A DNA stretch of 64,000 bases. Origin: an uncultured Roseibium sp. GTDB taxonomy: Bacteria > Pseudomonadota > Alphaproteobacteria > Rhizobiales > Stappiaceae. Below the pieces are notes generated by a model. The model had not been told where the DNA came from. It was given only the letters and a program-made list of their open reading frames with translations, and did not search any database. The stretch is from positions 2,092-66,091 of the forward strand of contig NZ_CANMNP010000021.1 in the NCBI RefSeq assembly GCF_947499295.1. Direction: 5' to 3'. A program made the position numbers and the translations under genes. Positions 38,722 to 61,929 of the stretch are shown here, piece by piece; the first letter of the stretch is position 1; each line of letters starts with the position of its first letter.

Positions 38722-39825
38722 CTAGGCATCAAAGAGTTTGATCGCGGGCTCCAGCCAACTGTCCTCAAGCCCGAGCGCAGACCGGTAGATCTGCGGAGAA
38801 AAAACTGCTTCCGCCTGACTGAAGGCCTCTTCAGATGCAGACGCTTGTCCCCAACGCACCATTTGTTCAAAAAACCAACGGCCATGGGCGGGCATTGGCG
38901 CCGCTTTGGAGCCTCCGGAAAAACTCAAAAAATCGGGTTGGGATAACTCCGGCTCGCCAATATCGAAACGCATCTGTCCGGTGATTGCTGGCATGCAAAT
39001 TTCCATTGGACAAGAAAGAAGATCCGGACGGGAGAGTATGCCAGCCAGTTGCTCGGCGTTTTCCGGAGATGCGCACCATTCGGCCGCCGCTGAAAATGCG
39101 CGTAGCAAGGCAGCAAGTGTTTCGGGATTACGTTCCGCCCAAGTATGCGTCACACCCAATACTTTTTCAGGACTATCCGGCCAGATCGCTTGTTTGTATG
39201 TGACAATCCGACCGGTTCCCGCCGAAACCGCCGCCGTGTTCCATGGTTCGCCAACGCAGTATCCGTCAATCTGCTTTGCTTGCAACGCATCTGCCATGAC
39301 CTGAGGCGCAAGGACTGAAATCTCAACATGAGTGTCCGGATCGACGCCTGCTGCCGCCAGCCAATATCGGAGTTCGTAAGCATGCCCGGAAAAGGGATGC
39401 ACGACACCAAACCGCAAAGGCGGATTTCCGTCGGAGTGCCGCGAAAAGATTATGGATGCCAATGCTTTGCCAGTTGTAACCGGATCCCCTTTCAAATCAG
39501 CTCCAGAGTCAGTCATTTGCTGCCACAGGTCCATCGACACCGTGATGGCGTTACCTCCGAGGCCCAGAAGCATTGGAGCTTTCATGGGGACCGCCAAACT
39601 CGTGAGATTGAGCGTCGCGGCGATCGGCATCGGGGCAAGCATGTGAGCAACATCGAAATGACCGACCGAGATGCGATCTCGGATATTTGCCCAGGAAGTT
39701 TCGCGGACCAGTTTAAGAGCAACCCCCTCTTCCTCGGCAAATCCCATCTCAGCGGCAATTACCGGAACAGCGCAATCAAGCAACGGAATGAAACCAGCTA
39801 TGACGGGTCTTAACTTAGGGTCCAT
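38722..39825 (-). CDS. nasS: Cytoplasmic nitrate/nitrite sensor
   Basis: NrtA-like ([24 protein letters not shown]) without a signal peptide, directly downstream of nasT. Confidence 0.88.
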   Translation of the reverse strand: MDPKLRPVIAGFIPLLDCAVPVIAAEMGFAEEEGVALKLVRETSWANIRDRISVGHFDVAHMLAPMPIAATLNLTSLAVPMKAPMLLGLGGNAITVSMDLWQQMTDSGADLKGDPVTTGKALASIIFSRHSDGNPPLRFGVVHPFSGHAYELRYWLAAAGVDPDTHVEISVLAPQVMADALQAKQIDGYCVGEPWNTAAVSAGTGRIVTYKQAIWPDSPEKVLGVTHTWAERNPETLAALLRAFSAAAEWCASPENAEQLAGILSRPDLLSCPMEICMPAITGQMRFDIGEPELSQPDFLSFSGGSKAAPMPAHGRWFFEQMVRWGQASASEEAFSQAEAVFSPQIYRSALGLEDSWLEPAIKLFDA

Positions 39826-39884
39826 TACTCTTCGCTCCCCTGGTAGGCCGCTCCTCCCCGACCGTTCAATCTGACTGTCATGAT

Positions 39885-40472
39885 CTAGTCTCCCAGCAAA
39901 CCGCTGGCGATAACCAGACTTTGCGCGACATCTATAATCTTGCGGCTTTGGTTCATGGCTGTTCTGCGCAGAAGATCGTAGGCCTCCTGCTCTGACAGCC
40001 CTTTCGATTTCATCAAGATACCTTTGGCCCGGTCGACAGTTTTCCGATCGGCAAGTTCTGTTCGCGCTTCTTCAAGGTCACTCGCAAGTTTTGAAAAAGC
40101 GCGGAAGCGGCTGATCGCCATATCCAGTATGGGCTTGACCCGTTCCCGTCGGAGCCCGTCAACAACATACGCCGAGACACCGGCATCGACTGCAGCTTCA
40201 ATCGACTGACTGTCGGCACTGTCCACGAACATGGCAATCGGTCTGTGAACCGCCCGTGACACCTGAAACATGTGTTCGAGCTGATCGCGATTTGGATTTT
40301 CCAGATCGATAACAATTACATCGGGATTGATGTCGGCAATTTGCCGAACGAGACCGTCCATCTGATGAACGACAATGACTTTGTCATGTCCCGCGTCCTG
40401 CAAGCCTTCTTCGATGATCGACGCTCGGATCTTGTTGTCATCTATGACCAGTATGGACAAACCACCATTCAT
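39885..40472 (-). CDS. nasT: ANTAR-domain RNA antiterminator (receiver-like + ANTAR)
   Basis: ILVIDDN receiver-like domain and DRKTVDRAKGILM...AYDLLRRTAMNQ ANTAR domain. Start at ATG 40472. Confidence 0.92.
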   Translation of the reverse strand: MNGGLSILVIDDNKIRASIIEEGLQDAGHDKVIVVHQMDGLVRQIADINPDVIVIDLENPNRDQLEHMFQVSRAVHRPIAMFVDSADSQSIEAAVDAGVSAYVVDGLRRERVKPILDMAISRFRAFSKLASDLEEARTELADRKTVDRAKGILMKSKGLSEQEAYDLLRRTAMNQSRKIIDVAQSLVIASGLLGD

Positions 40473-40733
40473 GCCGCCATTATGCGCAGGACTATTTTTT
40501 ATGCAATCAATTTGCTGCACTGCGTCATTTCAATTCCTGAGAGCAAGGCAACAAGGCTAACATTGCCACCCAACCTTTCTTTTTGGGCCGTGTTTGTTTC
40601 ACGAAGAATGCCCACAGGTTTGGTTCCTGTTTGATATGGTCGTAGTGCTTTCCCCTTCTGGGGAACTGCGCTTATGGTTCTTCGGCGCGTTTTGAAAGTT
40701 TCATCTGGCTTTGCAGGGCATCGGCCTTCCGGC

Positions 40734-41120
40734 TCAGGCGTATTCGTCGATCATGCTGACATGAGCCGCCACGACCTGCCATCCTGCATCCGTCCTGACC
40801 CAGGTCTGCATCTGGCGGCCGACCTTGCCCGGAGACGTGTCGCGGTAGAAGAGCGTTGCGGCTGTCGCAAAATCGGCTCCGTAGGTGGTAATGACGGTCT
40901 TGGCCAATGTCCGATCAAGATTGCCACCGGCCCTTGCCGACCGGAACGCGGCGATTTCAGCGTAGCCGTAGAGATTTTCCCCACCGCCATAGCGGATCGT
41001 GGTCGGCGCGTTCAGGAACAGCCGGTCCAGCGTATCGACATCATTGCTCACCAGCGCCGTCTCATATTCCTCGAAAACCGCCTCGACCTCTGCCTTAACG
41101 GCTGCGATGTTGATCTCCAT
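40734..41120 (-). CDS. atzH: AtzH/HpxZ-like protein (DUF3225, NTF2 fold)
   Basis: YETALVSNDVDTLD, IRYGGGENLYG, GRQMQTWVR and VAAHVS motifs. Linked to atzG/atzE. Confidence 0.85.
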   Translation of the reverse strand: MEINIAAVKAEVEAVFEEYETALVSNDVDTLDRLFLNAPTTIRYGGGENLYGYAEIAAFRSARAGGNLDRTLAKTVITTYGADFATAATLFYRDTSPGKVGRQMQTWVRTDAGWQVVAAHVSMIDEYA

Positions 41121-41896
41121 CAGTCTTGGCTCCCTGCAGTTTCCATGCGTGCACGCAGTTTATTTAGGAACGGGATGTCCCGGTACTGGTCCGGCTGCAC
41201 TTTATCCCAGGCGACACCGCGCGGCTGTGCGAAGGCCGTCCCGGTCTCGATAAGTTCCGCTTCCGTCGCGATGGCATGCAGCGGGCTGTCATGACCCATC
41301 ATCACCAGCCGGTCGTTGTCTACGACCTGTGAAGAATGCACCGTCGTCGTGATCGGCGCGTTCGGTTTCAGCTTCGAGAGTTCACGAAAGATGCCGAGTT
41401 CCAGGTCGGCAAATCCGCCGCCCTTTCCCGTGCGCGCGCCCTGACGGCTGACCGCAACGCAACCGACGACAACAAAATCCAGAAGCTCCATATCCTCGAA
41501 CTCGACCGGGTCGCCATGTTCGACGAAGCCTTGCGAGGTCGCCGCCAGTTCGAACTGGATACCTTTGCGCGCAAGTGTTTCGGGGTCCAGCCGGACGAAG
41601 GGAAAAGGCTTCAGGAGTTCCGGAACGGGCGCATAGACGATCTTGCCCTCGTAGAGCGCGCGCAGCCGGACCGGAATCTGCGGCGGATCGGGATTGCACT
41701 TGACGACCCTGGCCGCCTGCCATTCCGGCAGCCTGGCAAGGTTGCGAGCCGCCAAGTCCGCGCCGGCGAAATTCGGGATGCAGCTGAAAGCGGGCCCAAT
41801 GCTGGTCCCGCTGTCTTCGAGACCGGCCCAGACCGCCTGCCGGATATTGTCCTTGTCCTGATTCCGGCCCGCCCAGCGCGCGTTGTCCATGATCAT
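41120..41896 (-). CDS. 5-formyl-THF cyclo-ligase paralog (COG0212/MTHFSD-like)
   Basis: IPNFAGA, VKCNPDPPQ, DFVVVGCVAV and RTGKGGGFADLE motifs. Start at ATG 41896, overlapping the atzE stop; its own stop overlaps the atzH start. Confidence 0.8.
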   Translation of the reverse strand: MIMDNARWAGRNQDKDNIRQAVWAGLEDSGTSIGPAFSCIPNFAGADLAARNLARLPEWQAARVVKCNPDPPQIPVRLRALYEGKIVYAPVPELLKPFPFVRLDPETLARKGIQFELAATSQGFVEHGDPVEFEDMELLDFVVVGCVAVSRQGARTGKGGGFADLELGIFRELSKLKPNAPITTTVHSSQVVDNDRLVMMGHDSPLHAIATEAELIETGTAFAQPRGVAWDKVQPDQYRDIPFLNKLRARMETAGSQD

Positions 41897-43311
41897 GTCC
41901 CCTGGCTCACAAGTTCGGCCCGCCGGGCCGCGACTGGCGCTTTGCAGGTGCCGTCCTGCTCGAGGCGCGACGCAATCCTGAGCGCGATATCCTCCCGCCA
42001 CGCCGGTGCGATCACCTGGACGCCGATCGGAAGCGAAGCCTCTTCAAGCCAGACCGGCACCGCGACGACAGGCAGGCCGATAAAGGAGATCGGTTGGGTG
42101 AAGAGGCCGATATTCGGCCGCGCGGGCATAGTCTCCCCGTCGAGCGTGATGGTTTTCGTTCCGGAGGGAAGCGCCGAGAACGGCGTTGCTGGTGCCAGTA
42201 AGGCATCGACATGCTCGAAGATGCCGCGCATCATCGCCCGGAACCAGCTTCGGAAGCGCTGTGCCTGTTGCACCCAGAGGGCAGGGACCATGGTGCCGGA
42301 CAGGAACCTGTCGCGCGTGTCCGGATCGAAGTCCTGCGGCCTGTTGGTGATCCGCTCGAGATGAAGGGCGGCACCTTCCGCCACAGTGATCACATAGGCG
42401 GACGCGCGCGCCCTCGCAGCTTCGGGAATGTCGATTTCAGCCGAGACGCCAAGCGCGTTGGCAACCGCGTCCACGGCAGCAAGAGCTTCCGGTTCGGCTT
42501 TCTGCCTGAAATAGCCTCCGGCGACGGCGATCCGCAGGCCATCCGTGCCCTTTACCAGCTCCCCGCCCGTTGACAGGACCGGCCGATCCGGTTGGGCCGG
42601 ATCGCTGATGTCGCGTCCCTGCAGCGCATCGAACACCAGCGCAAGATCCTGCGCCGAGCGGGCCAGAGGGCCGAGATGATCGAGACTGCCGACAAACGGA
42701 AAGGTTCCGTGGCGCGACAGACGGCCATAGGTAGGTTTCAGCCCGAACAGGCCGCAGAAAGAAGAGGGCACGCGGATGGAGCCGTTGGTGTCCGAACCGA
42801 GGGTAACGGGAACCATGCCGCTGGCCACCGCCGAACCGGCTCCGGAAGAGGAGCCACCGCTCATGCGGCCGGGATCGTGCGGATTGAGGCAATTCCCGTC
42901 ATGTGCGTTTTCGCCGGTAAAGTCATAGGCGTATTCGCCCATGTGCAAGCCGCCCATCAGGATACCGCCGGCCCGGCACAGCTTGGTTGTCAGGGTCGCA
43001 TCGGTCGTGGCCGGCAGGTTTTCCAGGTTGATCTTCGACCCGGCCCGGGTCACCAAACCCTTGATGTCGAACAGGTTCTTGACCGCGAAAGGCACCCCGG
43101 CCAGAGGCAGATCCGCACCGACGGCAATCGCAGCATCAACGCTCTCGGCCTCGGCCATGGCCCGATCCGCGGTCACATCGGTGAACGCATTGAAAACCGG
43201 GTTGAGCGTCTCGATCCGCGACAGCGACGACCGGACGACGTCGACTGCCCTCAGCTCGCCAGATCCGACGGCGGAGGCAATCGCGGCCGCGCTTTCCGGT
43301 ACAGCGCTCAT
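41893..43311 (-). CDS. atzE: AtzE-family amidase (1-carboxybiuret hydrolase-like)
   Basis: Amidase signature KNLF, GGSSSG and GSDTNGSIR; YDFTGEN; RPNIGLFTQP. Confidence 0.88.
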   Translation of the reverse strand: MSAVPESAAAIASAVGSGELRAVDVVRSSLSRIETLNPVFNAFTDVTADRAMAEAESVDAAIAVGADLPLAGVPFAVKNLFDIKGLVTRAGSKINLENLPATTDATLTTKLCRAGGILMGGLHMGEYAYDFTGENAHDGNCLNPHDPGRMSGGSSSGAGSAVASGMVPVTLGSDTNGSIRVPSSFCGLFGLKPTYGRLSRHGTFPFVGSLDHLGPLARSAQDLALVFDALQGRDISDPAQPDRPVLSTGGELVKGTDGLRIAVAGGYFRQKAEPEALAAVDAVANALGVSAEIDIPEAARARASAYVITVAEGAALHLERITNRPQDFDPDTRDRFLSGTMVPALWVQQAQRFRSWFRAMMRGIFEHVDALLAPATPFSALPSGTKTITLDGETMPARPNIGLFTQPISFIGLPVVAVPVWLEEASLPIGVQVIAPAWREDIALRIASRLEQDGTCKAPVAARRAELVSQGT

Positions 43312-43493
43312 GCCTCGAACACCGGAGCAGCTTCGATGTCTTCCCCGAGTGGGAAGGACAGCACAAGTTCTGCGGCTTTCTGCGTGGCGGCGATATGGGC
43401 TTCCACGACGGGACGCCAGTCGTCCTCAATGGCCAGCCCCATGATTTTTTCCATGTGGGCGACATGCGAATTGGCATCGAATTCAGCGCTCAT
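43308..43493 (-). CDS. atzG: AtzG-like small subunit (DUF4089)
   Basis: 61 aa ending LVLSFPLGEDIEAAPVFEA, directly upstream of atzE. GGGAG RBS before ATG 43493. Confidence 0.8.
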   Translation of the reverse strand: MSAEFDANSHVAHMEKIMGLAIEDDWRPVVEAHIAATQKAAELVLSFPLGEDIEAAPVFEA

Positions 43494-43510
43494 GGACACT
43501 CCCGTTATTG

Positions 43511-44170
43511 CTATATTGCTTTTTCGAACGAAGCCAGCGGCGCGGTCCAGCCGACAATGCCGCCCTGCGCGCGGATCATGTCGAGTGTCGCCGCCTTGAA
43601 CGCAGGGAAATAGCTTTCCGTCGCCTCCTCGATCAGGAGACATTCGAAGCCGCGGTCATTGGCCTCGCGCATGGTTGTCTGGACGCAGACTTCCGTGGTA
43701 ACGCCGGCAAAGACCAGGCTTCTCGCACCAAGCTCTTCCAGGATAATGCCCAGCTCCGTTGCGTAGAACGCGCCCTTGCCAGGTTTGTCGATGACGGTTT
43801 CCCCGGCGACCGGCGCGCACTCGGCGATGATCTCGGCACCCGGCTCGCCCTGGATCAGGATCCGCCCCATAGGCCCGATGTCGCCAATCCGAAGCGCCGG
43901 GCTGCCACGGTCCCGTTTGGCGGGCGGACAGTTGCTCAGGTCCTGCGCATGCGTCTCCCGCGTATGGATGACAGGCCAGCCCTCCTCCCTGAACAGGCGA
44001 AGCAGCATTGCCGTTGGGGCGATGGCCCGTTGCATGTGGGAGATATCGTTGCCGAGCGTCTCGCCGAAGCCGCCCGGCTCTATGAAATCCCGCTGCATGT
44101 CGATGACGACCAGGGCCGTTGCGGCGGGGTCAAACGTGAACTCGAAAGGCGAAGCATCGACCGTGATCAT
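43511..44170 (-). CDS. trtA: Isochorismatase-like cysteine hydrolase, triuret hydrolase-like
   Basis: D-K-C triad ([26 protein letters not shown]). The GGFG..LGND, MGRIL and YFP..AQGGIVG motifs match my recollection of TrtA rather than BiuH. Start at ATG 44170. Confidence 0.72.
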
Positions 44171-45711
44171 CAGTGATGCCCCGCCATTGCATGGCCGATC
44201 GTGGCCCTGTCCGTTTCCGTCATAGGCGACTGGTATGTGACCCTGCCTTCCGACATTACCGCGACCGTGTCTGCAAGCTCCAGAATCTCGTCGAGATCCT
44301 CGGACACAAGAAGGATAGCGGCACCCTTGTTGCGCTGGTCCATGATCTGCGCCCGGATTTCCGCGACCGAGGCAAAATCGAGCCCGAAACACGGGTTGGC
44401 GACGATGAGGATATCGACCTCGTGAGACAGTTCCCGCGCCAGGATCGCCCGCTGTACGTTGCCGCCGGAGAGGTTCTCGATCGGCTCTTCGGTCGAGGGG
44501 GTCTTGACCCGGTAGGCGGCAATCAACTCTCGTGCCCGCTTGCGCATCGGCGGCGGCGAAAGCCAGCCCTTGAAAGGCGAGATCGGTGCCTTGTCGAAGG
44601 TTCGGAAGGCCATGTTTTCCGCAACGCTCATGTTTGGCACGGCCACGTTTTTCAAGGGTTCCTCGGAAAAGCCGAACACCTTGAACCGGTCCATTTGGTC
44701 CCGCTCCGGTTCATAGGGCTGCTTGTCGACGAAAATCCGTCCGTCCGTTGGCTGCCGCTGCCCGGACAGGACCTCGATCAACTCGGACTGGCCATTGCCG
44801 GAAACACCTGCGATGCCGAGGATCTCACCCGCGTGGATCTTCAGGCTGATCGCCTCAATGGCAGGCAGCTCAGAATCGTCATCCGCGAACAAACCGGCAA
44901 GCTCCAGCTTCAGGGCCTTCTCCGGCTGGTCTACCCGGGCCGCGCTTTCGCGGATCTCCGTTTCGCCGATCATCATGCGGCTCATTTCCTCGACGGAGAG
45001 ATCCTGAACCCGGCCACTGTCGACGACACGCCCGCGCCGCAGCACCGTGACATCATCGGCATAGGCCGTCACTTCCCGAAACTTGTGGGTGATCATAAGA
45101 ATGGTGAGCTCGCCCGCTTCGGTCATGCCGCGCAGGAGCCCGAGCACCTCGTCCGCCTCGTCCGGCGTCAGCACCGATGTCGGCTCGTCGAGGATCAGGA
45201 AGCGCTGATCGAGGTAGAGCTGCTTCAGAATCTCCAGCTTCTGCTTTTCGCCCGCGGAAAGGCTCGAGACCTGTACATCCAGCGGGACCTTGAAGGGTGT
45301 TGTCTCGAGAAAAGCATTGAGCGCCCTGCGTTCACTCTTCCAGTCGATCACCGCCGGGGTGTCGGCGCGGGCGATGACAAGGTTTTCCGCCGCCGTCAGG
45401 GACGGCACAAGCGTGAAATGCTGATAGACCATGCCGATCCCGCACGCATGTGCCGCGCGTGGATTGGGGATCTCGACTTCGCTGTCGTCGACCAGCATCG
45501 TGCCACTTGTCGGCTGGTAGAAGCCCATCATGCATTTGACGAGCGTGGATTTCCCGGCACCGTTCTCGCCCAAAAGCGCGTGAAAGGACCCGGGTGTGAC
45601 CCGGATCGACACGTCGTCGAGTGCGGTCAGGCTCGCAAACACCTTGGTCATGCCGAGGGTTTCAACGCCAATGGCTCGGAACTCAGGGTCCGCGAACTGT
45701 GTAACACTCAT
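44170..45711 (-). CDS. CUT2/nucleoside-type ABC ATPase (two NBDs)
   Basis: [17 protein letters not shown] and LSGGNVQR motifs. Start at ATG 45711. Confidence 0.92.
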
Positions 45712-46454
45712 TTCGGCGCTCCTCCGACGGCAAGTTCCAGTCCGGCCAGCAGCGCGTCGCTGTCGGCGACCGCACCGAAAACCCCACCCTGCATGGTCAC
45801 CATCTTCAGCGCCGCCTCGTGATTGCCTGGATCGGTCGCCGCGCAGCAATCCGACACAATCAGACATTCAAAGCCGCGGTCATTGGCCTCGCGCATGGTG
45901 GTGTGCACGCAAACATCGGTGGTGATCCCGGTCAGGATCAGGTTGTCGATGCCTCGGGTTCTGAGCAGCAGTTCCAGGTCCGTGGCGCAGAAGGAGCCCT
46001 TGCCCGGTTTGTCGATAACCGGTTCGCCGTCGGCGGGCGCAAGTTCGGGAATGATCTCCCAGCCTGGCTCGCCGCGAACCAGGATCTTGCCGCAGGGACC
46101 CGGGTCACCTATCCCCGCTCCGATCTGTTGGGACCGCCAGCGCTTGTTGGCCGGCAGATCGGCGAGATCCGGGCGGTGCCCCTCGCGGGTGTGAATGATG
46201 TGATAGCCTCTGGCACGCATGGACGCGAGCACCTTGCCGATCGGCACGATCGGCGCGCGTGTCAGGCCGATATCGTAGCCCATGCTGTCTACATAACCGC
46301 CTTTGCCGCAGAAATCGGTCTGCATGTCTATGATGATCAGCGCCGTGTTCTCCGGCCTGAGATCACCGTTATAGGGCCAGCTATAGGGAACCGAGGCGAC
46401 CTGCCCCTTGACCTCGTCCGCATCGAGCGTTTGCGCAAGGCTCATGTAAGTCAC
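45708..46454 (-). CDS. biuH: Biuret hydrolase
   Basis: [52 protein letters not shown] and MQGGVFG closely match my recollection of Rhizobium BiuH. Confidence 0.88.
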
Positions 46455-47470
46455 TCCGCCGCGTCGCTGAGGGCTTTTTCACCGAAAACCCGCACCGGCT
46501 CTTCGAAGCCGCAGGAGGTTCCGTCCGTGTGCAGGACCTCGTCTTCCCATGGCAACCGGTACCGACCCGCCGCGAGATCAGTCATGTAGGTGTAGGGACA
46601 GTCCTGCGCCCCGCCCTTCACGGCAACATAGCCGCGATGGCCAAACTGGTAGATATTGTTTTCCACGCTCCAATTGATGCGCGCCTCGCGCACGAGGTCC
46701 GGCCGGACCTCGGCGGTGATGATCTCGTTCGGCCGACCGTTGGTACCGTGGGCCAGGATTGTGCCGTCGAAATTGACGATCATGCCCTCGCCCATACTGT
46801 CGAAAGTTCCGTCAGTGCCGCACATGCAGACATTGGCAGTCACCATGAGATTGCAGAACGCGTTGGACTGGTTGGTGAATTTCCAGCTGTCACGGATCGG
46901 GGCCGTGTAGCCAGCGGTCCGGATCATGATTTCCGCGCCTTTGTAAGCGCATTCGCGGGCCATTTCCGGAAACATGCCGTCATGGCAGATGATCAGCGCC
47001 ATCCTGCAGCCGTTCGGGCCGTCGATCACCGGAATGCCCTGGTCTCCTGGCTCCCACGGCTCCACCGGCACCCATGGATGCATCTTGCGGTAATAGAGCT
47101 TCAGCTCGCCGGTATTGTCGATGATTAGCCCGGAATTGTAGGGCATGCCGCCGGGATTCAGCTCCATGATGGAGAAGCAGCCCCAGATGTCGTTGTCGAC
47201 ACAGGCCTGCTTGAAGGCGGCAACCTCCGGCCCGTCGAGCGAGCACATGATGTCCGGGTTGGTGTCCATTGACAGGCCGTGCAGGGCGTATTCAGGAAAG
47301 ACGACCATATCCATGCTCGGCATGTTGCGCCGCGCCTTGGCCACCATGTCGACAATCACCTGCGTCTGGTTCGCAAGGTCGACCTCGCTCACCACCGTCG
47401 GCAGCTGCAGCTGCACCATGCCCAGGACCACGCCGTTCGGGGCTTTATTCAGTCCACCAAGTCCGCTCAT
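46451..47470 (-). CDS. Formamidase (nitrilase superfamily, AmiF-like)
   Basis: E-K-C triad: [20 protein letters not shown] and IICHDG. Confidence 0.82.
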
Positions 47471-47481
47471 GTCGTGGCTCC

Positions 47482-48405
47482 TTATTTGGTGATCGAGAGT
47501 TCGCCCGGCGCACCCTTAAGGGACCGCCTCGGTGAGGAGCTCGCAATCATGATCAAGAGGGTGAGGATGTAGGGCGCCGCATTGAAGAAGTGATAGCCGC
47601 GCGAGATGCCGATGGACTGCAGCGCTGGTCCGAGCGCCCCTGCCGCGCCGAAGAGCAGCGCCGCCCAGAAGCAGGCGATCGGGTTCCACCTGGCAAAGAT
47701 CACCAACGCAACTGCCATCAGGCCCTGACCCGACGACAGACCTTCCGTCCAGCTGCCCGGATAGTAGAGCGACAGGAAGGAACCGCCGATGCCGGCGAAA
47801 AACCCGCCCGCCATGGTCGACAGCAACCGGACCTTGTCGACATTGATGCCGAGCGCGAGGGCTGCCGGTGCACTGTCACCGGTGGTGCGGATGGTCAGGC
47901 CGTACCGGGTGTTCTTGAGCGCCCACCAAAGGAACACGGCAAGCGCGATGCCAAGCAGGAACAGCGGATTGATTTCCAGTGCCTGGCGTACGCCCGGATG
48001 TTCGCTCCAGGTGCCGAAGGAGATCGACGGCAAGCGCGGTGCGGATGGCTGGATATAGGCCTTGCCGAAAAAGAAGGCGAGGCCCGTGCCGAACAGCATC
48101 AGGGCGATGCCGATGGCAATGTCGTTGACCTTCGGCAGCTTGCACAGATAGCCGTGCAGTGCCCCGAAGCCCGAGCCGCAGATGCCGGCGACGAGCACGC
48201 CCAGCCAGGGTAAGCCCGTGTGATAAGAAATCGCGTAACCGGACATGGCACCGAAGACGAGTGTTCCCTCGAGACCCAGATTGATGCGGCCGGATTTCTC
48301 CGTCAGCATTTCACCCAGACTGACGAACAGGAACGGGGTCGAAACCCGGATGGCTCCGGCAAACATCGCCAGAAGCACGGTCATGAGACCTGCGTCGCCG
48401 CTCAC
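47482..48405 (-). CDS. ABC permease (nucleoside/BMP type)
   Basis: GEMLTEKSGRINLGLEG and GQGLMAVALVIFARWNP motifs. Confidence 0.9.
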   Translation of the reverse strand: MSGDAGLMTVLLAMFAGAIRVSTPFLFVSLGEMLTEKSGRINLGLEGTLVFGAMSGYAISYHTGLPWLGVLVAGICGSGFGALHGYLCKLPKVNDIAIGIALMLFGTGLAFFFGKAYIQPSAPRLPSISFGTWSEHPGVRQALEINPLFLLGIALAVFLWWALKNTRYGLTIRTTGDSAPAALALGINVDKVRLLSTMAGGFFAGIGGSFLSLYYPGSWTEGLSSGQGLMAVALVIFARWNPIACFWAALLFGAAGALGPALQSIGISRGYHFFNAAPYILTLLIMIASSSPRRSLKGAPGELSITK

Positions 48406-49517
48406 AGCACCCCTCCTTTAGACCTGAAGATGGCAAAGCGTCCGTAGAAGGTTTCGGACACCAGGATGACCAGAAACAGCAGCCCCTGCAGGACCAGCAC
48501 CGTTGCATCCGGCAGGTCCATACGCCGTTGGATCAACCCACCCGAAGCGGCGATGCCTCCGAGGAAGATGGCCACGGGTATGATCACCAGTGGATTGTGG
48601 CGTGCGAGAAACGAAACAAGGATCCCGGTAAAGCCGTAGCCCGCGATCAGCGAGGCATTGGCCTTACCGTGTATGGCCGCCACCTCGAAGAATCCGGCAA
48701 GCCCCGCGCAGGCCCCCGCGATTGCGCAGGACACCACGACCAGCCGACCAACAGGCAGACCCTGCGCCTGGGCGGCCCTGAGATTGCCGCCGGCGATCTG
48801 AGCGGCAAAGCCGAAGGTGGTCCGGTTCATCAGCAGATAGAGCAGCCCGCACAGGACAACGCCGGTCAGCAGTCCCCAGTGCACGTCCGTGCCGGGGATT
48901 GCGCCGATCATGTTGTCCGAGCCGATCGGCCGTGTTGACGGCTTGTTCGGATCGGAGGGATCGCGCAGGGCGCCTTCGACGAAGAAATTCAGGATCGAGA
49001 CGGCAATGTAGAACATCAGCAACGAGGCGATAGTCTCGTTGACACCCCGGTAGTGGCGCAGCGCACCGACGCAGCCGATCCAGAGGCCACCCGCCAGCAT
49101 GGCGGCGATCACCATGACACCGAGCAGCAGGAAGCCGGGCGCCCAGTCGACCATGGGAATGGCGATCGCAGCTGCAGCGAAACCGCCGAGCACCAGCGCG
49201 CCCTCGCCGCCGATGATGACAAGCCCGAGCCGCGCCGGAACGGCAACGCACAGCGCCGTAAAAATGAACGGCGCGGAGCGCACCAGTGTATTCTGCCAGG
49301 AAAAACTCGTGCCGAAGCCGCCGCGCCAGACCAGCGAGAAGAAGTCCGCTGGAGATTTGCCGAGTGTGAGCAGGAAAATGGAGAAAAGGATGCCAGAAAA
49401 GACCAGCGCCAGAAGGGGAATTACCACATATTCCGCCGAGCGCCGAAACCTATCCAGAAGATCGGCCGCGAAGCTGGATTGAACGGCAATCCCGGGTGTT
49501 TCCGTGGTATCTGCCAT
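48402..49517 (-). CDS. ABC permease (nucleoside/BMP type)
   Basis: IGGEGAL, GVNETIASLL and GYGFTGILVSFLAR motifs. Start at ATG 49517. Confidence 0.9.
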   Translation of the reverse strand: MADTTETPGIAVQSSFAADLLDRFRRSAEYVVIPLLALVFSGILFSIFLLTLGKSPADFFSLVWRGGFGTSFSWQNTLVRSAPFIFTALCVAVPARLGLVIIGGEGALVLGGFAAAAIAIPMVDWAPGFLLLGVMVIAAMLAGGLWIGCVGALRHYRGVNETIASLLMFYIAVSILNFFVEGALRDPSDPNKPSTRPIGSDNMIGAIPGTDVHWGLLTGVVLCGLLYLLMNRTTFGFAAQIAGGNLRAAQAQGLPVGRLVVVSCAIAGACAGLAGFFEVAAIHGKANASLIAGYGFTGILVSFLARHNPLVIIPVAIFLGGIAASGGLIQRRMDLPDATVLVLQGLLFLVILVSETFYGRFAIFRSKGGVL

Positions 49518-49635
49518 ACCTTCTCCCTGAAGATTGGGCTGCTGCCGCACCATTCGTCGACAGACGCACCGAATTCCTGGCCACACCGGAGGCCCGTTTT
49601 CCAACGGGCTCGTCCAATGTGGCGGTTTTCTTCGA

Positions 49636-50748
49636 TCAGGTGATCGAGCCGATCACGCCTTCGATCAGGTAGTCGGTCTGGTCGAGGGAGGGTTCGTAAT
49701 TTTCGAAGCTGGCGCCTGCAGCCAATAGCGACGAACCGTCCTGTTTGTTGATCGGGCCGACAAAGATCGACTTACCGGCCTTGACGTCCGCGCGGGCCGC
49801 GTCAGCGGCCGCGATTGCGGCTTCCGTCGCGCCAGCGCCGTAAGGCGTGGAGCGCACGAAATCGACATCGAACCCGCCGCCGGTGAAGTTCGGCAACGGC
49901 TCGCCCTCGGCCAGATCTGTGGCGAACATCTTGTAAATGGTCTCCCACTTGTATTCCGCGCCGGTGATAAAGCCATTCGGTGCCAGAGGTGACTGGGAGG
50001 CATTGTGGCCACAGCACTTGATGCCGCGGGACTCGGCAGTTTCGATCACCACCTTCGGTCCGTCGACATGACAGGTGAGCACATCGCAACCGGCATCGAC
50101 CAGGGCGTTAGCGGCCTCGGCTTCGCGAACCGGCATCGACCATTCACCGGTGAAGATCACCTGGACCGTGGCTTCCGGATTGACCTTGCGTGCGCCCAAA
50201 AGGAAGGAATTGATGTTGCGCAGGACTGTGCCGATCGGTTTGGCTGCGACAAAGCCGAGCTTGTTGCTTGTCGTCGACAGGCCAGCAGCAACACCGTCTA
50301 CATAATGCGCCTGGTCGAGATATCCGAAATAGCTGCCGGCATTCTTCGGGTCGGCCTCGGTCCAGAGCGGTGCAGCGTGGCGGAATTCGACGTCGGTATA
50401 TTTCGCCGCCAGATCCAGCACGAACGGTTTGTAGTAGCCGAAGGAGGTCGCGAAGATCAGCTTGGCGCCGTCCAGGTTAATCATGGATTCCATGGATTTC
50501 TGAACCGCGATCGTTTCCGGCACGTTTTCCTCTTCCACCACCGTTACGCCCGGCACGTCCTTCAGGGCGGTGGCGGCGACGGCATGAGCCTGGTTCCAAC
50601 CGAAGTCGTCACGCGGACCGACATAGACAATGCCGACAGTCAGCTCTGACGCTTGCGCCAGCCGCGGCAACCCGGCCGAGGACAACGCGGCAAGGCCCGC
50701 TGCGGATGATTTCAGGATGGTTCGGCGAGAGAGTTCGAATTTAGACAT
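49636..50748 (-). CDS. BMP-family ABC substrate-binding protein (Tat signal)
   Basis: SRRTILK twin-arginine signal; YVGPRDDFGWNQAH and IFATSFGY motifs. Confidence 0.9.
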   Translation of the reverse strand: MSKFELSRRTILKSSAAGLAALSSAGLPRLAQASELTVGIVYVGPRDDFGWNQAHAVAATALKDVPGVTVVEEENVPETIAVQKSMESMINLDGAKLIFATSFGYYKPFVLDLAAKYTDVEFRHAAPLWTEADPKNAGSYFGYLDQAHYVDGVAAGLSTTSNKLGFVAAKPIGTVLRNINSFLLGARKVNPEATVQVIFTGEWSMPVREAEAANALVDAGCDVLTCHVDGPKVVIETAESRGIKCCGHNASQSPLAPNGFITGAEYKWETIYKMFATDLAEGEPLPNFTGGGFDVDFVRSTPYGAGATEAAIAAADAARADVKAGKSIFVGPINKQDGSSLLAAGASFENYEPSLDQTDYLIEGVIGSIT

Positions 50749-51983: not shown

Positions 51984-52000
51984 CCTGCGCATCCGCCTTT

Positions 52001-53824
52001 TCACTCAGCCGCCGCAACGGGCTGCTGCGCCGTCACCGACGCAATGAATTTCCGCCAGCTGCCGAGATGGGAAATGTTCTCCGCGCGCTCAACCCCGGCG
52101 GCCTCGCAGATGAAGCCGGTCACACTGGTACTGTCGGAGAGGTCCACCGTACCCAGGCCGAGCGGCGCCGGAATACCGGCCAGGAACCCGCCCACTTCGG
52201 TGGCGGGCAGCGCCCAGACTTCCAACTCGATCGCGGCACCTGAGCCCGCAGGTCCACGCACGAGACCGGGCCGTTTCGGCGGACCGCCCGCAAGCGCAAA
52301 AAGTGAATAGGCATCGCTGGTCTCGGCAGACTTCAGAAAGCGCCCGCCGCGCCCAGTCAATTCGCCGTTCAGCGCCATACCGGACATGTGTGCGCCACAG
52401 ACCGCAATGGCGATCTCACTGGTATCGGGAGCGGGTTGAAGATCTGCCGGGGCGGGCAGTGCCCAGCCTGTCGCACCAAGCGTGTGCGGCGCCATCTGTT
52501 CCAGCCGGCTGCCGACCGCAGCCAGGAAACCGTCGCGGCCCGCGGACGCCAACAGGGTCACGTTGCCCGGCCGTCCGTCCGAACGCGGTTTCACCGGCAC
52601 AGCGAGGCCACACATGTCCAGAAGGTTGACGAAATTGGTGTAGGTGCCGTTTCGCGAATTCGGACCGACCGGGTCGGCTTCGAGATCGGCCACGCTGTAG
52701 AAGGTCGGCATGGTCGGTACGCACAGAAGATCCAATTCAGACAGGACCGGCTCCGTTTTCCGGGCAAGCTCCTTCAGCCGGTAGAACCCCCGGAACGCAT
52801 CCGTCGCACTCAGGTCCAGCGCAGCCCCGACGATTTTGCGGGTCACCGGGTGGACTGCCTCCAGATTCTCGTTCATCAGTTCTTCGATGACCGTATGCCG
52901 CTCGGCGACCCAGGCCCCCTCGTAAAGCATGTGTGCGACATCGTAGAAGGGCGTGAAATCGACCTCGACGATCTCTGCCCCTTCCGCCCTCAGCAGTGCG
53001 ACCGTGTCGCGGAAGGACTGTTCCTGGACGGCATCTCCGCAGAACTCGATTGATCCCGCATCCGGTATGCCGATCCGCAGGCTGGGCGGCACCGGTGACA
53101 GGTCCGGAGCGGCGATCTTTCTGGAATAGGCATCGGCTTCGTCGTATCCGGCGGCAGCCTGATATGCGGTGTAGGCATCCTCCACCGTGAGGGCGAAAAT
53201 CGAAATCGTGTCGAGTGTGCGGCAGGCCGGTACAACACCGGATGCGGAGAGAGCGCCGAGCGTCGGCTTCAGGCCGACGATGTTGTTGAGCGCCGCCGGT
53301 ACCCGGCCGGAGCCGGCCGTATCCGTTCCGAGCGAGAAACTGACGATGCCATGGCCGACCGCAACGGCGGACCCGGAAGAGGAGCCACCCGGAACGATAG
53401 CCGGGTCTACGGAATTTTTTGGCGGCTGGTAGGGAGATCGCACGCCGACCAGCCCGGTCGCGAACTGGTCGAGATTCGTCTTGCCGATCAGAAGTGCGCC
53501 CGCCTGGCGCAGGTTCCTGACGACAAAGGCATCTTCCCCGGCCTGATACTCGTAGGCTGGACAGGCGGCCGTGGTCGGTTTGCCACCCGCGTCGATATTG
53601 TCCTTGATGACAAAGGGAATACCCCAGAGCGGTTTCGTGGCGTTGAACGCTCCGAGTTCGGCCGCCTGCTCAAGCACTTCCTGCTTGTCGAGGAGATAGA
53701 TGAAAATGCCCGGATCGCCGATGGTCTCGATCCGCCTGTAGACTTCCTCGACAATATCCGCAGGGCTTGCTCCGCCAGAATAGGCGGTCTTCAGGGATGA
53801 AAGCGTAAAGGGAAGATCGAACAT
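52001..53824 (-). CDS. atzF: Allophanate hydrolase
   Basis: KDNID, GKTNLDQFATGL, GGSSSGS, GTDTAGSGRVP and the C-terminal VCGAHMSG domain. GAGGAC RBS before ATG 53824. Confidence 0.95.
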   Translation of the reverse strand: MFDLPFTLSSLKTAYSGGASPADIVEEVYRRIETIGDPGIFIYLLDKQEVLEQAAELGAFNATKPLWGIPFVIKDNIDAGGKPTTAACPAYEYQAGEDAFVVRNLRQAGALLIGKTNLDQFATGLVGVRSPYQPPKNSVDPAIVPGGSSSGSAVAVGHGIVSFSLGTDTAGSGRVPAALNNIVGLKPTLGALSASGVVPACRTLDTISIFALTVEDAYTAYQAAAGYDEADAYSRKIAAPDLSPVPPSLRIGIPDAGSIEFCGDAVQEQSFRDTVALLRAEGAEIVEVDFTPFYDVAHMLYEGAWVAERHTVIEELMNENLEAVHPVTRKIVGAALDLSATDAFRGFYRLKELARKTEPVLSELDLLCVPTMPTFYSVADLEADPVGPNSRNGTYTNFVNLLDMCGLAVPVKPRSDGRPGNVTLLASAGRDGFLAAVGSRLEQMAPHTLGATGWALPAPADLQPAPDTSEIAIAVCGAHMSGMALNGELTGRGGRFLKSAETSDAYSLFALAGGPPKRPGLVRGPAGSGAAIELEVWALPATEVGGFLAGIPAPLGLGTVDLSDSTSVTGFICEAAGVERAENISHLGSWRKFIASVTAQQPVAAAE

Positions 53825-53848
53825 TTTTGTCCTCAATGTCTCTTGTTC

Positions 53849-59026: not shown

Positions 59027-59126
59027 AGCAATCCCCTCTTGGCAGGAAAGGGGAGAAGGCCCTTCCCACTGGCCTTCACGATGCGCGTCTTTGGTGAGTA
59101 CTTCTATTGCTATTTTTGCACCTTTG

Positions 59127-59145
59127 TGCTTCGTAATTTGCAGCA
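59127..59145. promoter_or_regulatory. LysR box TGCT-N11-AGCA
   Basis: Dyad with T-N11-A spacing in the divergent promoter, about 20 bp before the lysR ATG. Confidence 0.55.
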
Positions 59146-59165
59146 CCATACGCAAAGCATTGAAA

Positions 59166-61638: not shown

Positions 61639-61721
61639 GCCCCTTGTCCCCATGCTGTGCGGCACATTCCTTCAGCGCGCCGCAGCAGTGCTTCCCGGCT
61701 GTCCGCCTGCCTGCCCGCGAC

Positions 61722-61763
61722 CGTTCTATCGACCAGCTCCATCTGCTGCTGGTTGATAGAACG
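61722..61763. repeat. 16-bp inverted repeat (one mismatch) in the intergenic gap
   Basis: CGTTCTATCGACCAGC (61722-61737) / GCTGGTTGATAGAACG (61748-61763). Confidence 0.7.
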
Positions 61764-61929
61764 ACAATCGCGTGTCGTCTCGCATCTCCGGAAGCCATGC
61801 CTACCTCATTTTGTGTACTCGAAACTTTTCTTCAGTATCGGCGATTGCAAGCTATTCGCATCAGGAATGGTTCTTTGCCGAGGAAGGCACGCTCCGGGAG
61901 CGTGGATCGGTTTTTCTTGTCCGGAATTG

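What the first reader, a model, noticed from the sequence alone, without database searches (positions are those of the whole stretch)
41120..41896. COG0212 formyl-THF cyclo-ligase paralog inserted inside the atzG-atzE-atzH module
Seen: it is translationally coupled between atzE (4-bp overlap) and atzH (1-bp overlap), and shares the operon with a formamidase. Established: the COG0212/MTHFSD paralog family lacks a defined reaction and was linked by comparative genomics to thiamin or N-formyl metabolites rather than canonical 5-FCL activity. In the characterised Pseudomonas ADP operon, atzG, atzE and atzH have no such gene between them. Inference: this context is a new clue that the protein acts, probably ATP-dependently, on an N-formylated ureide or moves a formyl group into the folate pool.
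Basis: partly seen in the sequence, partly recalled or inferred. Interest (0 to 1): 0.8.

Follow-up and report, generated by a model that had tools for sequence, protein, structure and literature searches.

The report
Orphan cyclo-ligase paralog in biuret operon
A gene of a universal but functionally undefined enzyme family (relatives of 5-formyl-tetrahydrofolate cyclo-ligase, including human MTHFSD) is wedged between atzE and atzH of a triuret/biuret nitrogen-scavenging operon in dozens of alphaproteobacterial species; its wider partners are importers of purine-like bases, which gives a testable handle on the family.

Summary
Window 41120-41896 (- strand) encodes a 258-aa PF01812 protein. It is tightly coupled to an AtzE-family amidase upstream and an AtzH/HpxZ-like gene downstream. 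The operon also carries a BMP-type ABC importer, formamidase, BiuH, a TrtA orthologue and AtzG.

It is not a canonical 5-FCL. It scores far below the equivalog cut-offs, its substrate pocket is remodelled, and the genome has a separate canonical 5-FCL. It carries the signature of the MTHFSD / "5-FCL-like" paralog family.

The atzE-X-atzH order is not a one-off: it occurs in 67 of 84 loci across many Hyphomicrobiales genera and Roseivivax. The gene is optional, however. Orthologous clusters exist with atzE directly followed by atzH. About two thirds of BiuH-positive and about 70% of AtzE-positive genomes of the order lack it.

Close orthologues also occur as LysR-X-BMP-importer units without any amidase. 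More distant ones sit beside nucleobase transporters, a 2OG oxygenase, deaminase-type amidohydrolases and nucleoside enzymes.

Best reading: an accessory, probably ATP-dependent, amide-activating enzyme that acts on the purine/triazine-like cargo of the AtzT-like importer, rather than a dedicated partner of AtzEG/AtzH. Substrate and reaction remain unknown.

The parts
41120..41896 (-). Target gene: 258-aa MTHFSD-like / '5-FCL-like' paralog (PF01812 fold), referred to here as FCLp
   Evidence: AF2 pLDDT 88.8. Foldseek top hits are 5-FCL/MTHFS structures, E 2e-9. Family signature.
41893..43311 (-). AtzE-family Ser-cisSer-Lys amidase (472 aa)
   Evidence: NF006631 675 bits, cut-off 461; PF01425.
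43308..43493 (-). AtzG-like small subunit (probable start MSAEF...)
   Evidence: PF13318 E 9.8e-14; weak HpxX match.
40734..41120 (-). AtzH/HpxZ/TrtB-type SnoaL-fold protein (128 aa)
   Evidence: PF11533 184.6 bits. NF033625 185.9 bits, over its cut-off. Best PDB match is AtzH 6bjt, E 1.2e-39.
43511..44170 (-). TrtA (triuret hydrolase) orthologue, isochorismatase-like
   Evidence: Best PDB match 6xix/6xje (TrtA), 300 bits, against BiuH 6xjm at 214 bits. BiuH model 247 bits, below its 370 cut-off.
44170..45711 (-). ABC transporter ATPase (two cassettes) of the BMP system
   Evidence: PF00005 x2; NF047930 412 bits, below its cut-off.
45708..46454 (-). BiuH biuret amidohydrolase
   Evidence: NF050097 423.7 bits, cut-off 370. 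PDB 6azo 410 bits.
46451..47470 (-). Formamidase (AmiF type)
   Evidence: NF009803 573 bits, cut-off 406.
47482..49517 (-). Two ABC permeases of the BMP system (47482-48405 and 48402-49517)
   Evidence: ORFs. Conserved with the SBP and ATPase in related loci. The Pfam family was not checked on the window copies; homologues in other loci are PF02653.
49636..50748 (-). BMP-family periplasmic binding protein, AtzT-like, with TAT signal
   Evidence: PF02608 E 4e-32. PDB 3s99 E 2.4e-49; AtzT 6pi5 E 3.9e-41. AtzT binds guanine and ammeline (PMC6834077).
51000..52004 (-). 2OG/Fe(II) oxygenase (DIOX_N + 2OG-FeII_Oxy), a recurrent partner of the target gene
   Evidence: Orthologue co-occurs with the target at 15/22 versus 8/279 genomes, p = 8.6e-15. 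Adjacent to it in L055, L076 and L088 and in L158, L171 and L172; one gene away in L165 and two genes away in L141.
52001..53836 (-). AtzF allophanate hydrolase
   Evidence: NF006043 794 bits; TIGR02713 758 bits.

Best explanation
The gene encodes a catalytic member of a distinct bacterial clade of the MTHFSD / '5-FCL-like' (COG0212 paralog) family.

Shown:
- It has the 5-FCL fold and keeps the N-terminal K/R pair and the glycine-rich loop. From my own knowledge of MTHFS structures, these hold the ATP phosphates.
- The pocket residues that would hold 5-formyl-THF are replaced.
- It is an optional accessory gene of alphaproteobacterial triuret/biuret operons, co-translated with atzE and atzH.
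- The clade's other partners are importers of purine-like bases (AtzT-like BMP systems, Vut_1/YhhQ-type, NCS2), a 2OG oxygenase, deaminase-type amidohydrolases and nucleoside enzymes.

Inferred:
- It uses ATP to phosphorylate an amide or formamide carbonyl of the imported purine/triazine-like compound, or of a ring-opened formamido or ureido form of it. This would mirror the first half-reaction of 5-FCL.
- That activation would drive a C-N ring closure or opening, which feeds or salvages the compound alongside TrtA, BiuH, AtzEG, AtzH and AtzF.
- Its place between atzE and atzH reflects co-expression in one nitrogen-scavenging operon, not a step between the AtzEG and AtzH reactions.
For: Fold and motifs:
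- AF2 pLDDT 88.8, pTM 0.88. Best structural matches are 5-FCL/MTHFS (2jcb, 1ydm, 1wkc, 3hy6), E 2e-9 to 4e-7, at 13-20% identity.
- A profile alignment to solved 5-FCLs places G153-x-R-x-G-K-G-x-G-F-A-D-L-E on G-x-R-x-G-x-G-x-G-Y-Y-D-R. D70 of the N-P-D-P-P-Q motif falls on the conserved Glu.
- The family-wide signature is shared with RRM-fused eukaryotic proteins. It differs from the genome's own canonical 5-FCL at K158, E166, H187 and D70.
- A separate canonical 5-FCL sits at G000:C5:180400-180924.

Clade:
- The BMP/biuret-associated orthologues form one clade (support 95/100) with the LysR-BMP-only genes nested inside. The clade is apart from an NMT1/RpiR-linked clade, the eukaryotic RRM clade and canonical 5-FCL.

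Context:
- AtzE is immediately upstream in 67 of 84 loci and AtzH immediately downstream in 67 of 84. Within 10 kb: ABC ATPase 77, BiuH 71, TrtA-like 68.
- BiuH co-occurrence is 22/22 against 44/279.

Optional:
- Orthologous clusters L112 and L114-L116 (and L118, in a rearranged gene order) have atzE directly followed by atzH.

Independent of AtzE/AtzH:
- L119 and L120 read TrtA-AtzH-X-AtzF; L122 reads TrtA-X-AtzH.
- LysR-X-BMP SBP-permeases-ATPase units occur on three Rhodobacterales plasmids and on metagenome contigs L186 and L189. L162, L170, L193 and L196 have the same X-BMP-ABC order, with no LysR detected upstream.
- A 37%-identical relative sits inside a BMP operon.
- A 54%-identical relative sits among adenosine deaminase, PfkB, PsuG, NUDIX and IU-nucleoside hydrolase genes.
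- Relatives of 51-53% identity lie next to or within two genes of DIOX, with Vut_1, NCS2, allantoate amidohydrolase and a TRZ/ATZ / 8-oxoguanine-deaminase-like amidohydrolase nearby.

The window's binding protein is homologous to AtzT, which binds guanine (110 nM) and ammeline (360 nM).
Against: - No biochemical datum exists for any member of this clade. ATP use is inferred only from conserved motifs and was not checked on model coordinates, which were not available to me.
- Some close orthologues sit in housekeeping surroundings: between dnaG and rpoD in L121, and next to maf and hemE in L051.
- The relatives at 43-50% identity to the window protein, found in the metagenome scan, have no conserved neighbours. 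The importer link is therefore strong only within the clade above roughly 50% identity.
- The very tight coupling with atzE and atzH in 60+ species could still reflect a functional or physical link with these two proteins.
- The importer's real ligand is unknown.
Confidence: 0.45

Rival explanations
1. First reader's version. The enzyme acts ATP-dependently on an N-formylated ureide (formylurea, formylbiuret), for example cyclising N-formylbiuret to 5-azauracil. Alternatively it passes the formyl group to the folate pool, working together with the formamidase.
For: - 5-FCL chemistry is activation of an N-formyl group.
- A formamidase lies in the same operon.
- Formylurea is the second-best TrtA substrate in vitro, at 0.3% of the triuret rate (PMC7948467).
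- My inference: BiuH/TrtA-type hydrolysis of formylurea would yield formamide.
Against: - Formamidase is present in only 43 of 84 loci, and also in clusters that lack the gene.
- The gene occurs in importer-only units without any ureide hydrolase.
- The canonical YYDR motif and the residue aligned to the conserved Glu are replaced, so a folate acceptor is unlikely.
Confidence: 0.15
2. It handles the unstable N-carboxylated intermediates between AtzEG and AtzH (1-carboxybiuret, 1,3-dicarboxyurea, allophanate). Examples would be ATP-dependent activation of the carbamate carboxylate, or the reverse reaction yielding ATP.
For: - The position between atzE and atzH, with overlapping stop/start codons, is conserved in 67 of 84 loci.
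- Extra invariant basic residues (K66, R77, K158) could bind a carboxylate.
Against: - The same residues are invariant in the NMT1-linked and eukaryotic RRM-fused clades, which have no such intermediates.
- The gene persists without AtzE, and without any amidase.
- Orthologous clusters work without it.
Confidence: 0.1
3. It is a non-catalytic partner: a scaffold, chaperone or ligand sensor for AtzEG/AtzH or for the LysR regulator.
For: - Translational coupling with atzE and atzH.
- A LysR gene lies directly upstream in the importer-only units.
- AtzG is described as a vestigial, non-catalytic subunit in the title of the JBC 2018 paper cited.
Against: - The invariant residues are the ones that align with the phosphate-binding loop and pocket of 5-FCL, and they are kept from bacteria to eukaryotes. 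That pattern is typical of an active site.
- Some close orthologues are stand-alone genes in housekeeping regions.
Confidence: 0.08
4. It is simply a second, divergent 5-formyl-THF cyclo-ligase that recycles 5-CHO-THF.
For: PF01812 match, and public annotation as '5-formyltetrahydrofolate cyclo-ligase'.
Against: - TIGR02727 scores 24.9 bits against a cut-off of 84.9; NF007661 scores 18 against 343.
- A canonical 5-FCL exists elsewhere in the genome.
- The YYDR motif and the residue aligned to the conserved Glu are not conserved.
- Family members tested by others lack 5-FCL activity and do not complement (PMC3223725).
Confidence: 0.03

Closest known systems
5-formyltetrahydrofolate cyclo-ligase (MTHFS / YgfA, EC 6.3.3.2; PDB 2jcb, 1ydm, 1wkc, 3hy3-3hy6)
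   Same: - Same fold.
- The N-terminal K..R pair, the G-x-R-x-G-x-G-x-G loop, D164, Q190 and the D203...T211-E212 stretch are retained.
   Different: - 13-20% identity, below both equivalog cut-offs.
- YYDR is replaced by F-A-D-L-E.
- The conserved Glu position is an Asp inside a new K-x-N-P-D-P-P-Q motif.
- New invariant residues: W23, I-P-N-F, K158, E166, H187.
- An extra C-terminal segment of about 45 aa carries invariant W230.
- The genome has its own canonical enzyme.
COG0212 paralog, the '5-FCL-like protein' (Arabidopsis At1g76730; human MTHFSD; Pribat et al. 2011, cited in PMC3223725 and PMC4120688)
   Same: - Shares the whole family signature with RRM-fused eukaryotic members, at 35-42% identity.
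- Groups with them, well away from canonical 5-FCL.
- No defined reaction.
   Different: - The described bacterial paralogs are linked to thiamin genes.
- That type was seen here as a separate clade (30-34% identity) in RpiR / 5-FCL-like / NMT1-THI5 binding protein / ABC units.
- The window's clade is instead linked to BMP/AtzT-like importers, a 2OG oxygenase and triuret/biuret genes.
Pseudomonas sp. ADP atzDGEHF operon with the divergent atzRSTUVW operon
   Same: AtzG, AtzE, AtzH and AtzF homologues, plus a LysR-regulated ABC importer whose binding protein (AtzT) is homologous to the window's BMP protein.
   Different: - ADP has AtzD and nothing between atzE and atzH.
- The window's genome gave no AtzD/TrzD match (that search rang in no control genome either).
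- The window has TrtA, BiuH, formamidase, the 2OG oxygenase and the extra paralog, with the importer genes interleaved among the enzyme genes.
Triuret/biuret cluster of Herbaspirillum sp. BH-1 and nitrifiers (TrtA, TrtB, BiuH, AtzF, BmpA-NupABC)
   Same: A TrtA orthologue (300 bits to 6xix), BiuH, AtzF and a BMP-type importer are co-located (PMC7948467; PMC12625717).
   Different: - The gene lists for those clusters in the papers I could read include no 5-FCL-like gene and no AtzEG.
- Here, AtzEG and the paralog are added in a subset of Hyphomicrobiales.

Membership tests
Canonical 5-FCL (EC 6.3.3.2) | Scores above the curated equivalog models (TIGR02727, NF007661) | tested here: not met
   24.9 bits against 84.9, and 18 bits against 343.
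Canonical 5-FCL (EC 6.3.3.2) | 5-FCL/MTHFS fold | tested here: met
   AF2 model pLDDT 88.8. Foldseek top 12 hits are all 5-FCL/MTHFS, E 2e-9 to 2e-4.
Canonical 5-FCL (EC 6.3.3.2) | Glycine-rich phosphate loop plus N-terminal K/R (ATP site) | tested here: met
   K15, R19, G153, R155, G157, G159, G161 and D164 are conserved and align to the canonical loop. Their role in ATP binding comes from my own knowledge of MTHFS structures.
Canonical 5-FCL (EC 6.3.3.2) | Folate-pocket residues (Y-Y-D-R motif; conserved Glu after strand 2) | tested here: not met
   The motif reads F-A-D-L-E instead of Y-Y-D-R, and Asp70 sits in N-P-D-P-P-Q where canonical enzymes have the Glu.
Canonical 5-FCL (EC 6.3.3.2) | 5-CHO-THF to 5,10-methenyl-THF activity; complementation of ygfA | not testable with these tools
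   Needs an enzyme assay and complementation.
MTHFSD / '5-FCL-like' paralog family (COG0212 paralog) | Family signature shared with RRM-fused eukaryotic members | tested here: met
   W23, I-P-N-F, K-x-N-P-D, Q73, R77, G-x-R-x-G-K-G-x-G-[FY]-x-D-x-E, T-x-V-H, W230 are invariant or nearly so in the window clade, the NMT1 clade and the RRM-type proteins. The signature was derived here; it is not a published definition.
MTHFSD / '5-FCL-like' paralog family (COG0212 paralog) | Groups with the paralogs, apart from canonical 5-FCL, and coexists with a canonical copy | tested here: met
   Tree (canonical 5-FCL on a branch of about 8 substitutions per site). Canonical copy in the same genome.
MTHFSD / '5-FCL-like' paralog family (COG0212 paralog) | Genomic association with thiamin genes (the basis of the published functional link) | tested here: not met
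   Not seen for this clade, except one adjacent thi cluster in Roseicitreum. The NMT1/THI5-linked genes form a separate clade.
AtzG-AtzE-AtzH module | AtzE-family amidase, AtzG-like small protein and AtzH-like SnoaL protein, co-oriented | tested here: met
   NF006631 675 bits; PF13318 51.9 bits; PF11533 184.6 bits; AtzH PDB 6bjt E 1.2e-39.
AtzG-AtzE-AtzH module | Substrates 1-carboxybiuret and 1,3-dicarboxyurea (rather than oxalurate, as for HpxXYZ) | not testable with these tools
   The AtzH-like protein also passes the HpxZ equivalog cut-off (185.9 against 135). The presence of TrtA makes carboxybiuret plausible, but nothing here shows it.

The most novel reading that the evidence does not exclude
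The whole MTHFSD-like family would be ATP-dependent cyclo-ligases that re-close, or otherwise process, ring-opened N-formyl derivatives of pyrimidine-based heterocycles.

Candidate substrates by clade:
- the thiamin breakdown product formylaminopyrimidine, for the NMT1/ThiY-linked clade;
- formamidopyrimidine-type (FAPy) or related ring-opened purine/triazine bases, for the BMP/AtzT-, Vut_1- and NCS2-linked clade that contains the window's gene.

In that case the gene would be a salvage/repair enzyme for damaged purine-like bases taken up together with their oxidation products (triuret, biuret). The bacterial operon would then give the first assayable entry to the function of human MTHFSD.
Probability: 0.1. 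Interest if true: 0.85.

Novelty: new variant of a known kind. Interest (0 to 1): 0.6.

Why it matters
The MTHFSD / 5-FCL-like family occurs in bacteria, archaea and eukaryotes including humans. The exhaustive search found 1,796 cluster representatives. The family still has no assigned reaction.

This clade places one member in a compact, inducible operon, next to an importer whose relative AtzT binds guanine and aminotriazines. That narrows the candidate substrates to a short, purchasable list. The natural presence/absence polymorphism (atzE-X-atzH against atzE-atzH) offers ready-made comparator strains.

The finding also shows that the alphaproteobacterial triuret/biuret operon has conserved accessory genes, this paralog and a 2OG oxygenase. 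Current pathway schemes for triuret, biuret and cyanuric acid breakdown do not account for them.

Finally, public annotation as "5-formyltetrahydrofolate cyclo-ligase" is probably wrong for this clade.

Tried and rejected
- **Promoter and terminator scan, 40.3-54.5 kb.** Counts were no higher than in shuffled sequence.
- **Key papers not held.** Aukema et al. 2020 (TrtB, PMC6952224) and Pribat et al. 2011 (PMC6078417) could not be read. What TrtB is, and the detailed Pribat claims, rest on citing papers and on my memory.
- **Relatives at 31-40% identity in other Alphaproteobacteria (L004-L015).** None is next to AtzE or AtzH. Their contexts are heterogeneous (a gene set around an ABC ATPase that recurs in a few loci and that I read by eye as Mla-like, plus apparent flavin reductase and TauD-like genes; none of these was scanned against Pfam) and uninformative.
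- **Fusion proteins as clues.** The isochorismatase fusion (P0136) lies on a contig of fragmented gene calls and is probably an artefact. The GTP cyclohydrolase II fusion (P0163) is a single representative on a 1.9-kb contig. GNAT and amine-oxidase fusions are also single cases. Ten more long relatives showed only RRM or nothing.
- **AtzD/TrzD in the genome.** No match, but the control panel did not ring either, so absence is only probable.
- **Relatives at 43-50% identity to the window protein, from the metagenome scan.** No conserved neighbours, so the importer link cannot be extended to the whole family.
- **Literature search for MTHFS active-site residues.** Nothing usable was returned.
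- **Model coordinates.** These were not available to scripts, so spatial clustering of the invariant residues was not checked.
Full report
**1. What is in the window**

On the minus strand, one run of overlapping or nearly abutting genes extends from 50748 down to 40734:
- a BMP-family binding protein with a TAT signal (49636-50748);
- two permeases;
- a formamidase (NF009803, 573 bits);
- BiuH (NF050097, 423.7 bits, over the cut-off);
- a double-cassette ABC ATPase;
- a second isochorismatase-like hydrolase whose best solved relative is triuret hydrolase TrtA (6xix, 300 bits, against 214 bits for BiuH 6xjm; the PDB codes were confirmed in PMC7948467);
- an AtzG-like small protein;
- an AtzE-family amidase (NF006631, 675 bits);
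- the target gene;
- an AtzH/HpxZ-type protein (PF11533, 184.6 bits; AtzH 6bjt, E 1.2e-39).

Directly upstream lie a 2OG/Fe(II) oxygenase and AtzF. Further upstream are a LysR gene, a Dpp-type transporter and two amidohydrolases. The block 41-50 kb has 61-64% G+C against 53-57% around it.

**2. The observation**

The target ORF (41120-41896) gives 258 residues.
- Its first ATG overlaps the atzE stop (ATGA). An ATG two codons later, which most homologues use, leaves a 2-nt gap.
- Its stop shares one base with the atzH start (TGATG).
- It matches PF01812 (E 1.6e-18). It scores only 24.9 bits on the bacterial 5-FCL equivalog, whose cut-off is 84.9.
- The genome has a separate full-length canonical 5-FCL on another contig.

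**3. Not a one-off**

A scan of one genome per species found 242 relatives. The best 80 (62-89% identity) were fetched with 10-kb flanks. Four plasmid loci were added.

Among these 84 loci:
- AtzE is the immediate upstream neighbour in 67.
- AtzH is the immediate downstream neighbour in 67.
- Within 10 kb: ABC ATPase 77, BiuH 71, TrtA-like 68, the binding protein 68, the 2OG oxygenase 44, formamidase 43.

The loci span Roseibium/Labrenzia/Stappia, Kaistia, Bauldia, Mesorhizobium, Bosea, Methylocapsa, Roseiarcus, Lichenihabitans, Pleomorphomonas, Mongoliimonas, Chthonobacter, Zhengella, Salaquimonas, Breoghania and Roseivivax.

The junctions stay tight:
- From the atzE stop to the nearest start of the gene, the gap is -4 nt in 18 loci and within about 17 nt in most.
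- From its stop to the atzH start, the gap is -4 nt in 22 loci and -1 nt in 16.

An independent first-stage note on another genome saw the same arrangement.

**4. But optional, and not tied to AtzE/AtzH**

In an even sample of 301 genomes of the order:

| Gene | Genomes with it |
|---|---|
| close orthologue (60% identity or more) | 22 |
| AtzE-family gene over the cut-off | 69 |
| BiuH over the cut-off | 66 |

- All 22 orthologue-positive genomes have BiuH (p = 1.3e-16).
- 20 of them have AtzE, and 17 have it adjacent.
- 44 BiuH-positive and 49 AtzE-positive genomes lack the gene.

Fetching such clusters showed the same architecture with atzE directly followed by atzH (L112, L114, L115 and L116; L118 also has atzE abutting atzH, in a rearranged cluster).

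Conversely, clusters without AtzE keep the gene: TrtA-AtzH-X-AtzF in L119 and L120, and TrtA-X-AtzH in L122.

Three Rhodobacterales plasmids carry only LysR-X-BMP binding protein-permeases-ATPase, with no amidase. The same LysR-X-BMP unit recurs on metagenome contigs L186 and L189. L162, L170, L193 and L196 show the X-BMP-ABC order without a detected LysR.

A few close orthologues are stand-alone genes in housekeeping regions.

Formamidase presence is independent of the gene.

**5. Which family**

- The exhaustive search gave 1,796 representatives at E up to 1e-3.
- Longer relatives at 35-42% identity are 5-FCL-domain plus RRM proteins, the MTHFSD architecture.
- A maximum-likelihood tree puts the window's protein in a well-supported clade (95/100). 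That clade holds all the biuret-cluster genes, with the LysR-BMP-only genes nested inside.
- A second bacterial clade (30-34% identity) sits in RpiR / 5-FCL-like / NMT1-THI5 binding protein / ABC units. This is the thiamin-type context reported for COG0212 paralogs (PMC3223725, PMC4120688).
- The eukaryotic RRM proteins form a third group. Canonical 5-FCL sits on a very long branch.

A column-by-column comparison gives a signature common to all paralog clades: K15, R19, W23, I-P-N-F, K-x-N-P-D, Q73, R77, G-x-R-x-G-K-G-x-G-[FY]-x-D-x-E, T-x-V-H, Q190, D203, T211, P225, W230.

Only the following are shared with canonical 5-FCL: the K/R pair, R77, the glycine loop, D164, Q190 and D203...T211.

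The profile alignment to solved 5-FCLs shows Y-Y-D-R replaced by F-A-D-L-E, and Asp70 aligned to the conserved Glu.

The AF2 model is confident (pLDDT 88.8). Its only strong structural matches are 5-FCL/MTHFS at 13-20% identity, and no paralog structure is in the PDB.

The protein is therefore a member of the MTHFSD-like paralog family and fails the membership test for canonical 5-FCL.

**6. What the wider partners say**

- The window's binding protein is homologous to AtzT of Pseudomonas ADP (E 3.9e-41). AtzT binds guanine at 110 nM and ammeline at 360 nM, and belongs to the importer encoded divergently from atzDGEHF (PMC6834077).
- A 37%-identical relative lies inside a BMP operon: Bmp, two 5-FCL-like genes, ATPase, two permeases.
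- A 54%-identical relative lies among adenosine deaminase, PfkB, pseudouridine glycosidase, NUDIX, an MFS transporter and IU-nucleoside hydrolase genes.
- Relatives of 51-53% identity lie next to, or within two genes of, an orthologue of the window's 2OG oxygenase. Nearby are Vut_1 (YhhQ-type) and NCS2 nucleobase transporters, an allantoate amidohydrolase and a TRZ/ATZ / 8-oxoguanine-deaminase-like amidohydrolase.
- The oxygenase orthologue co-occurs with the gene in the order-level sample at 15/22 against 8/279 (p = 8.6e-15).
- Relatives at 43-50% identity have no conserved neighbours.

The consistent theme within the clade is uptake and breakdown or salvage of purine-like or triazine-like bases. 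It is not the AtzEG to AtzH step.

**7. How it most likely works**

Shown:
- the fold;
- a retained phosphate-loop motif;
- an altered pocket;
- operon membership;
- optional distribution;
- purine-type importers as partners.

Inferred:
- The protein uses ATP to phosphorylate an amide or formamide oxygen of the imported heterocycle, or of a ring-opened form of it, as 5-FCL does with 5-formyl-THF.
- This would drive a ring closure or opening that channels the compound towards TrtA, BiuH, AtzEG, AtzH and AtzF, or back into salvage.

I put this at about 0.45. The rivals are:

| Rival | Probability |
|---|---|
| action on the N-carboxylated intermediates | 0.10 |
| a non-catalytic partner | 0.08 |
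| ordinary 5-FCL | 0.03 |

The remainder is something not considered here.

**8. Comparison with what is known, and novelty**

None of the papers I could read mentions a 5-FCL-like gene. These were the papers on AtzH (searched by term only), on TrtA and on nitrifier triuret clusters (text searches and the cluster gene lists), and on AtzT (not searched for such a gene). The TrtB paper could not be read. No biochemical function for MTHFSD-type proteins was found.

The gene is a new, context-defined variant within a known family of unknown function. The conserved atzE-X-atzH arrangement and the link to the BMP/AtzT importer and the 2OG oxygenase appear to be undescribed.

**9. Limits**

- There is no biochemistry for this clade.
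- ATP-site roles rest on my knowledge of MTHFS structures.
- The identity of TrtB, and the details of Pribat et al., could not be read.

Noticed in passing
window 41000-50000: The operon block has 61-64% G+C against 53-57% on both sides. Several orthologous units are plasmid-borne. This suggests horizontal acquisition.
   Followed up: partly
window 51000-52004, and loci L055, L076, L088, L141, L158, L165, L171, L172: A DIOX_N/2OG-FeII_Oxy oxygenase is a recurrent partner of the 5-FCL-like gene: directly adjacent in most of these loci, one or two genes away in L165 and L141. This holds even outside biuret clusters, where it sits with Vut_1 and NCS2 nucleobase transporters. Its best solved relatives are an ethylene/succinate-forming-enzyme homologue (9ovh) and thymine dioxygenase (5c3p). 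The substrate is unknown.
   Followed up: partly
L110 7048-7785; L124-L127: A second paralog clade (30-34% identity) sits in RpiR / 5-FCL-like / NMT1-THI5 binding protein / ABC ATPase / permease units. It often occurs as two copies a few kb apart, and in the same genomes that carry the biuret-cluster copy.
   Followed up: partly
L109 (Roseicitreum plasmid pRA01) 2579-8566: The LysR-X-BMP unit lies divergently next to a thiD-thiO-thiS-thiG-thiE-thiF-SBP-TenA-ABC thiamin cluster. This is the only thiamin adjacency seen for this clade.
   Followed up: no
G000:C22:5558-6934: The genome has a second AtzE-family amidase (676 bits) on another contig, without a 5-FCL-like neighbour reported.
   Followed up: no
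window 38722-40520: Directly downstream of atzH lies a NasS/NasT-like pair (an NMT1_2 sensor protein, and a response regulator with an ANTAR domain) in lower-GC DNA. It marks the edge of the operon.
   Followed up: no
window 59091-63189: A LysR gene is divergent from a Dpp-type transporter/atzF/oxygenase operon. Beyond it are a TRZ/ATZ-like amidohydrolase (partial matches only, 175 bits against a cut-off of 540) and a cytosine-deaminase-like amidohydrolase.
   Followed up: no
P0122 (representative library): An 1810-residue protein with seven 5-FCL-like repeats (31% identity each) was the top-scoring hit of the exhaustive search. Its origin and meaning are unknown.
   Followed up: no
L131, L132 (metagenome contigs): A 53%-identical homologue lies on contigs with eukaryotic genes (ribosomal protein S7e, KRR1, SERRATE/ARS2), next to a PfkB kinase. 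This could be a bacterial-type copy in a microbial eukaryote.
   Followed up: no
L121 (G516:C1:3702000-3716000): A 60%-identical orthologue sits between dnaG and rpoD, about 50 kb from that genome's BiuH/TrtA/AtzE cluster.
   Followed up: no
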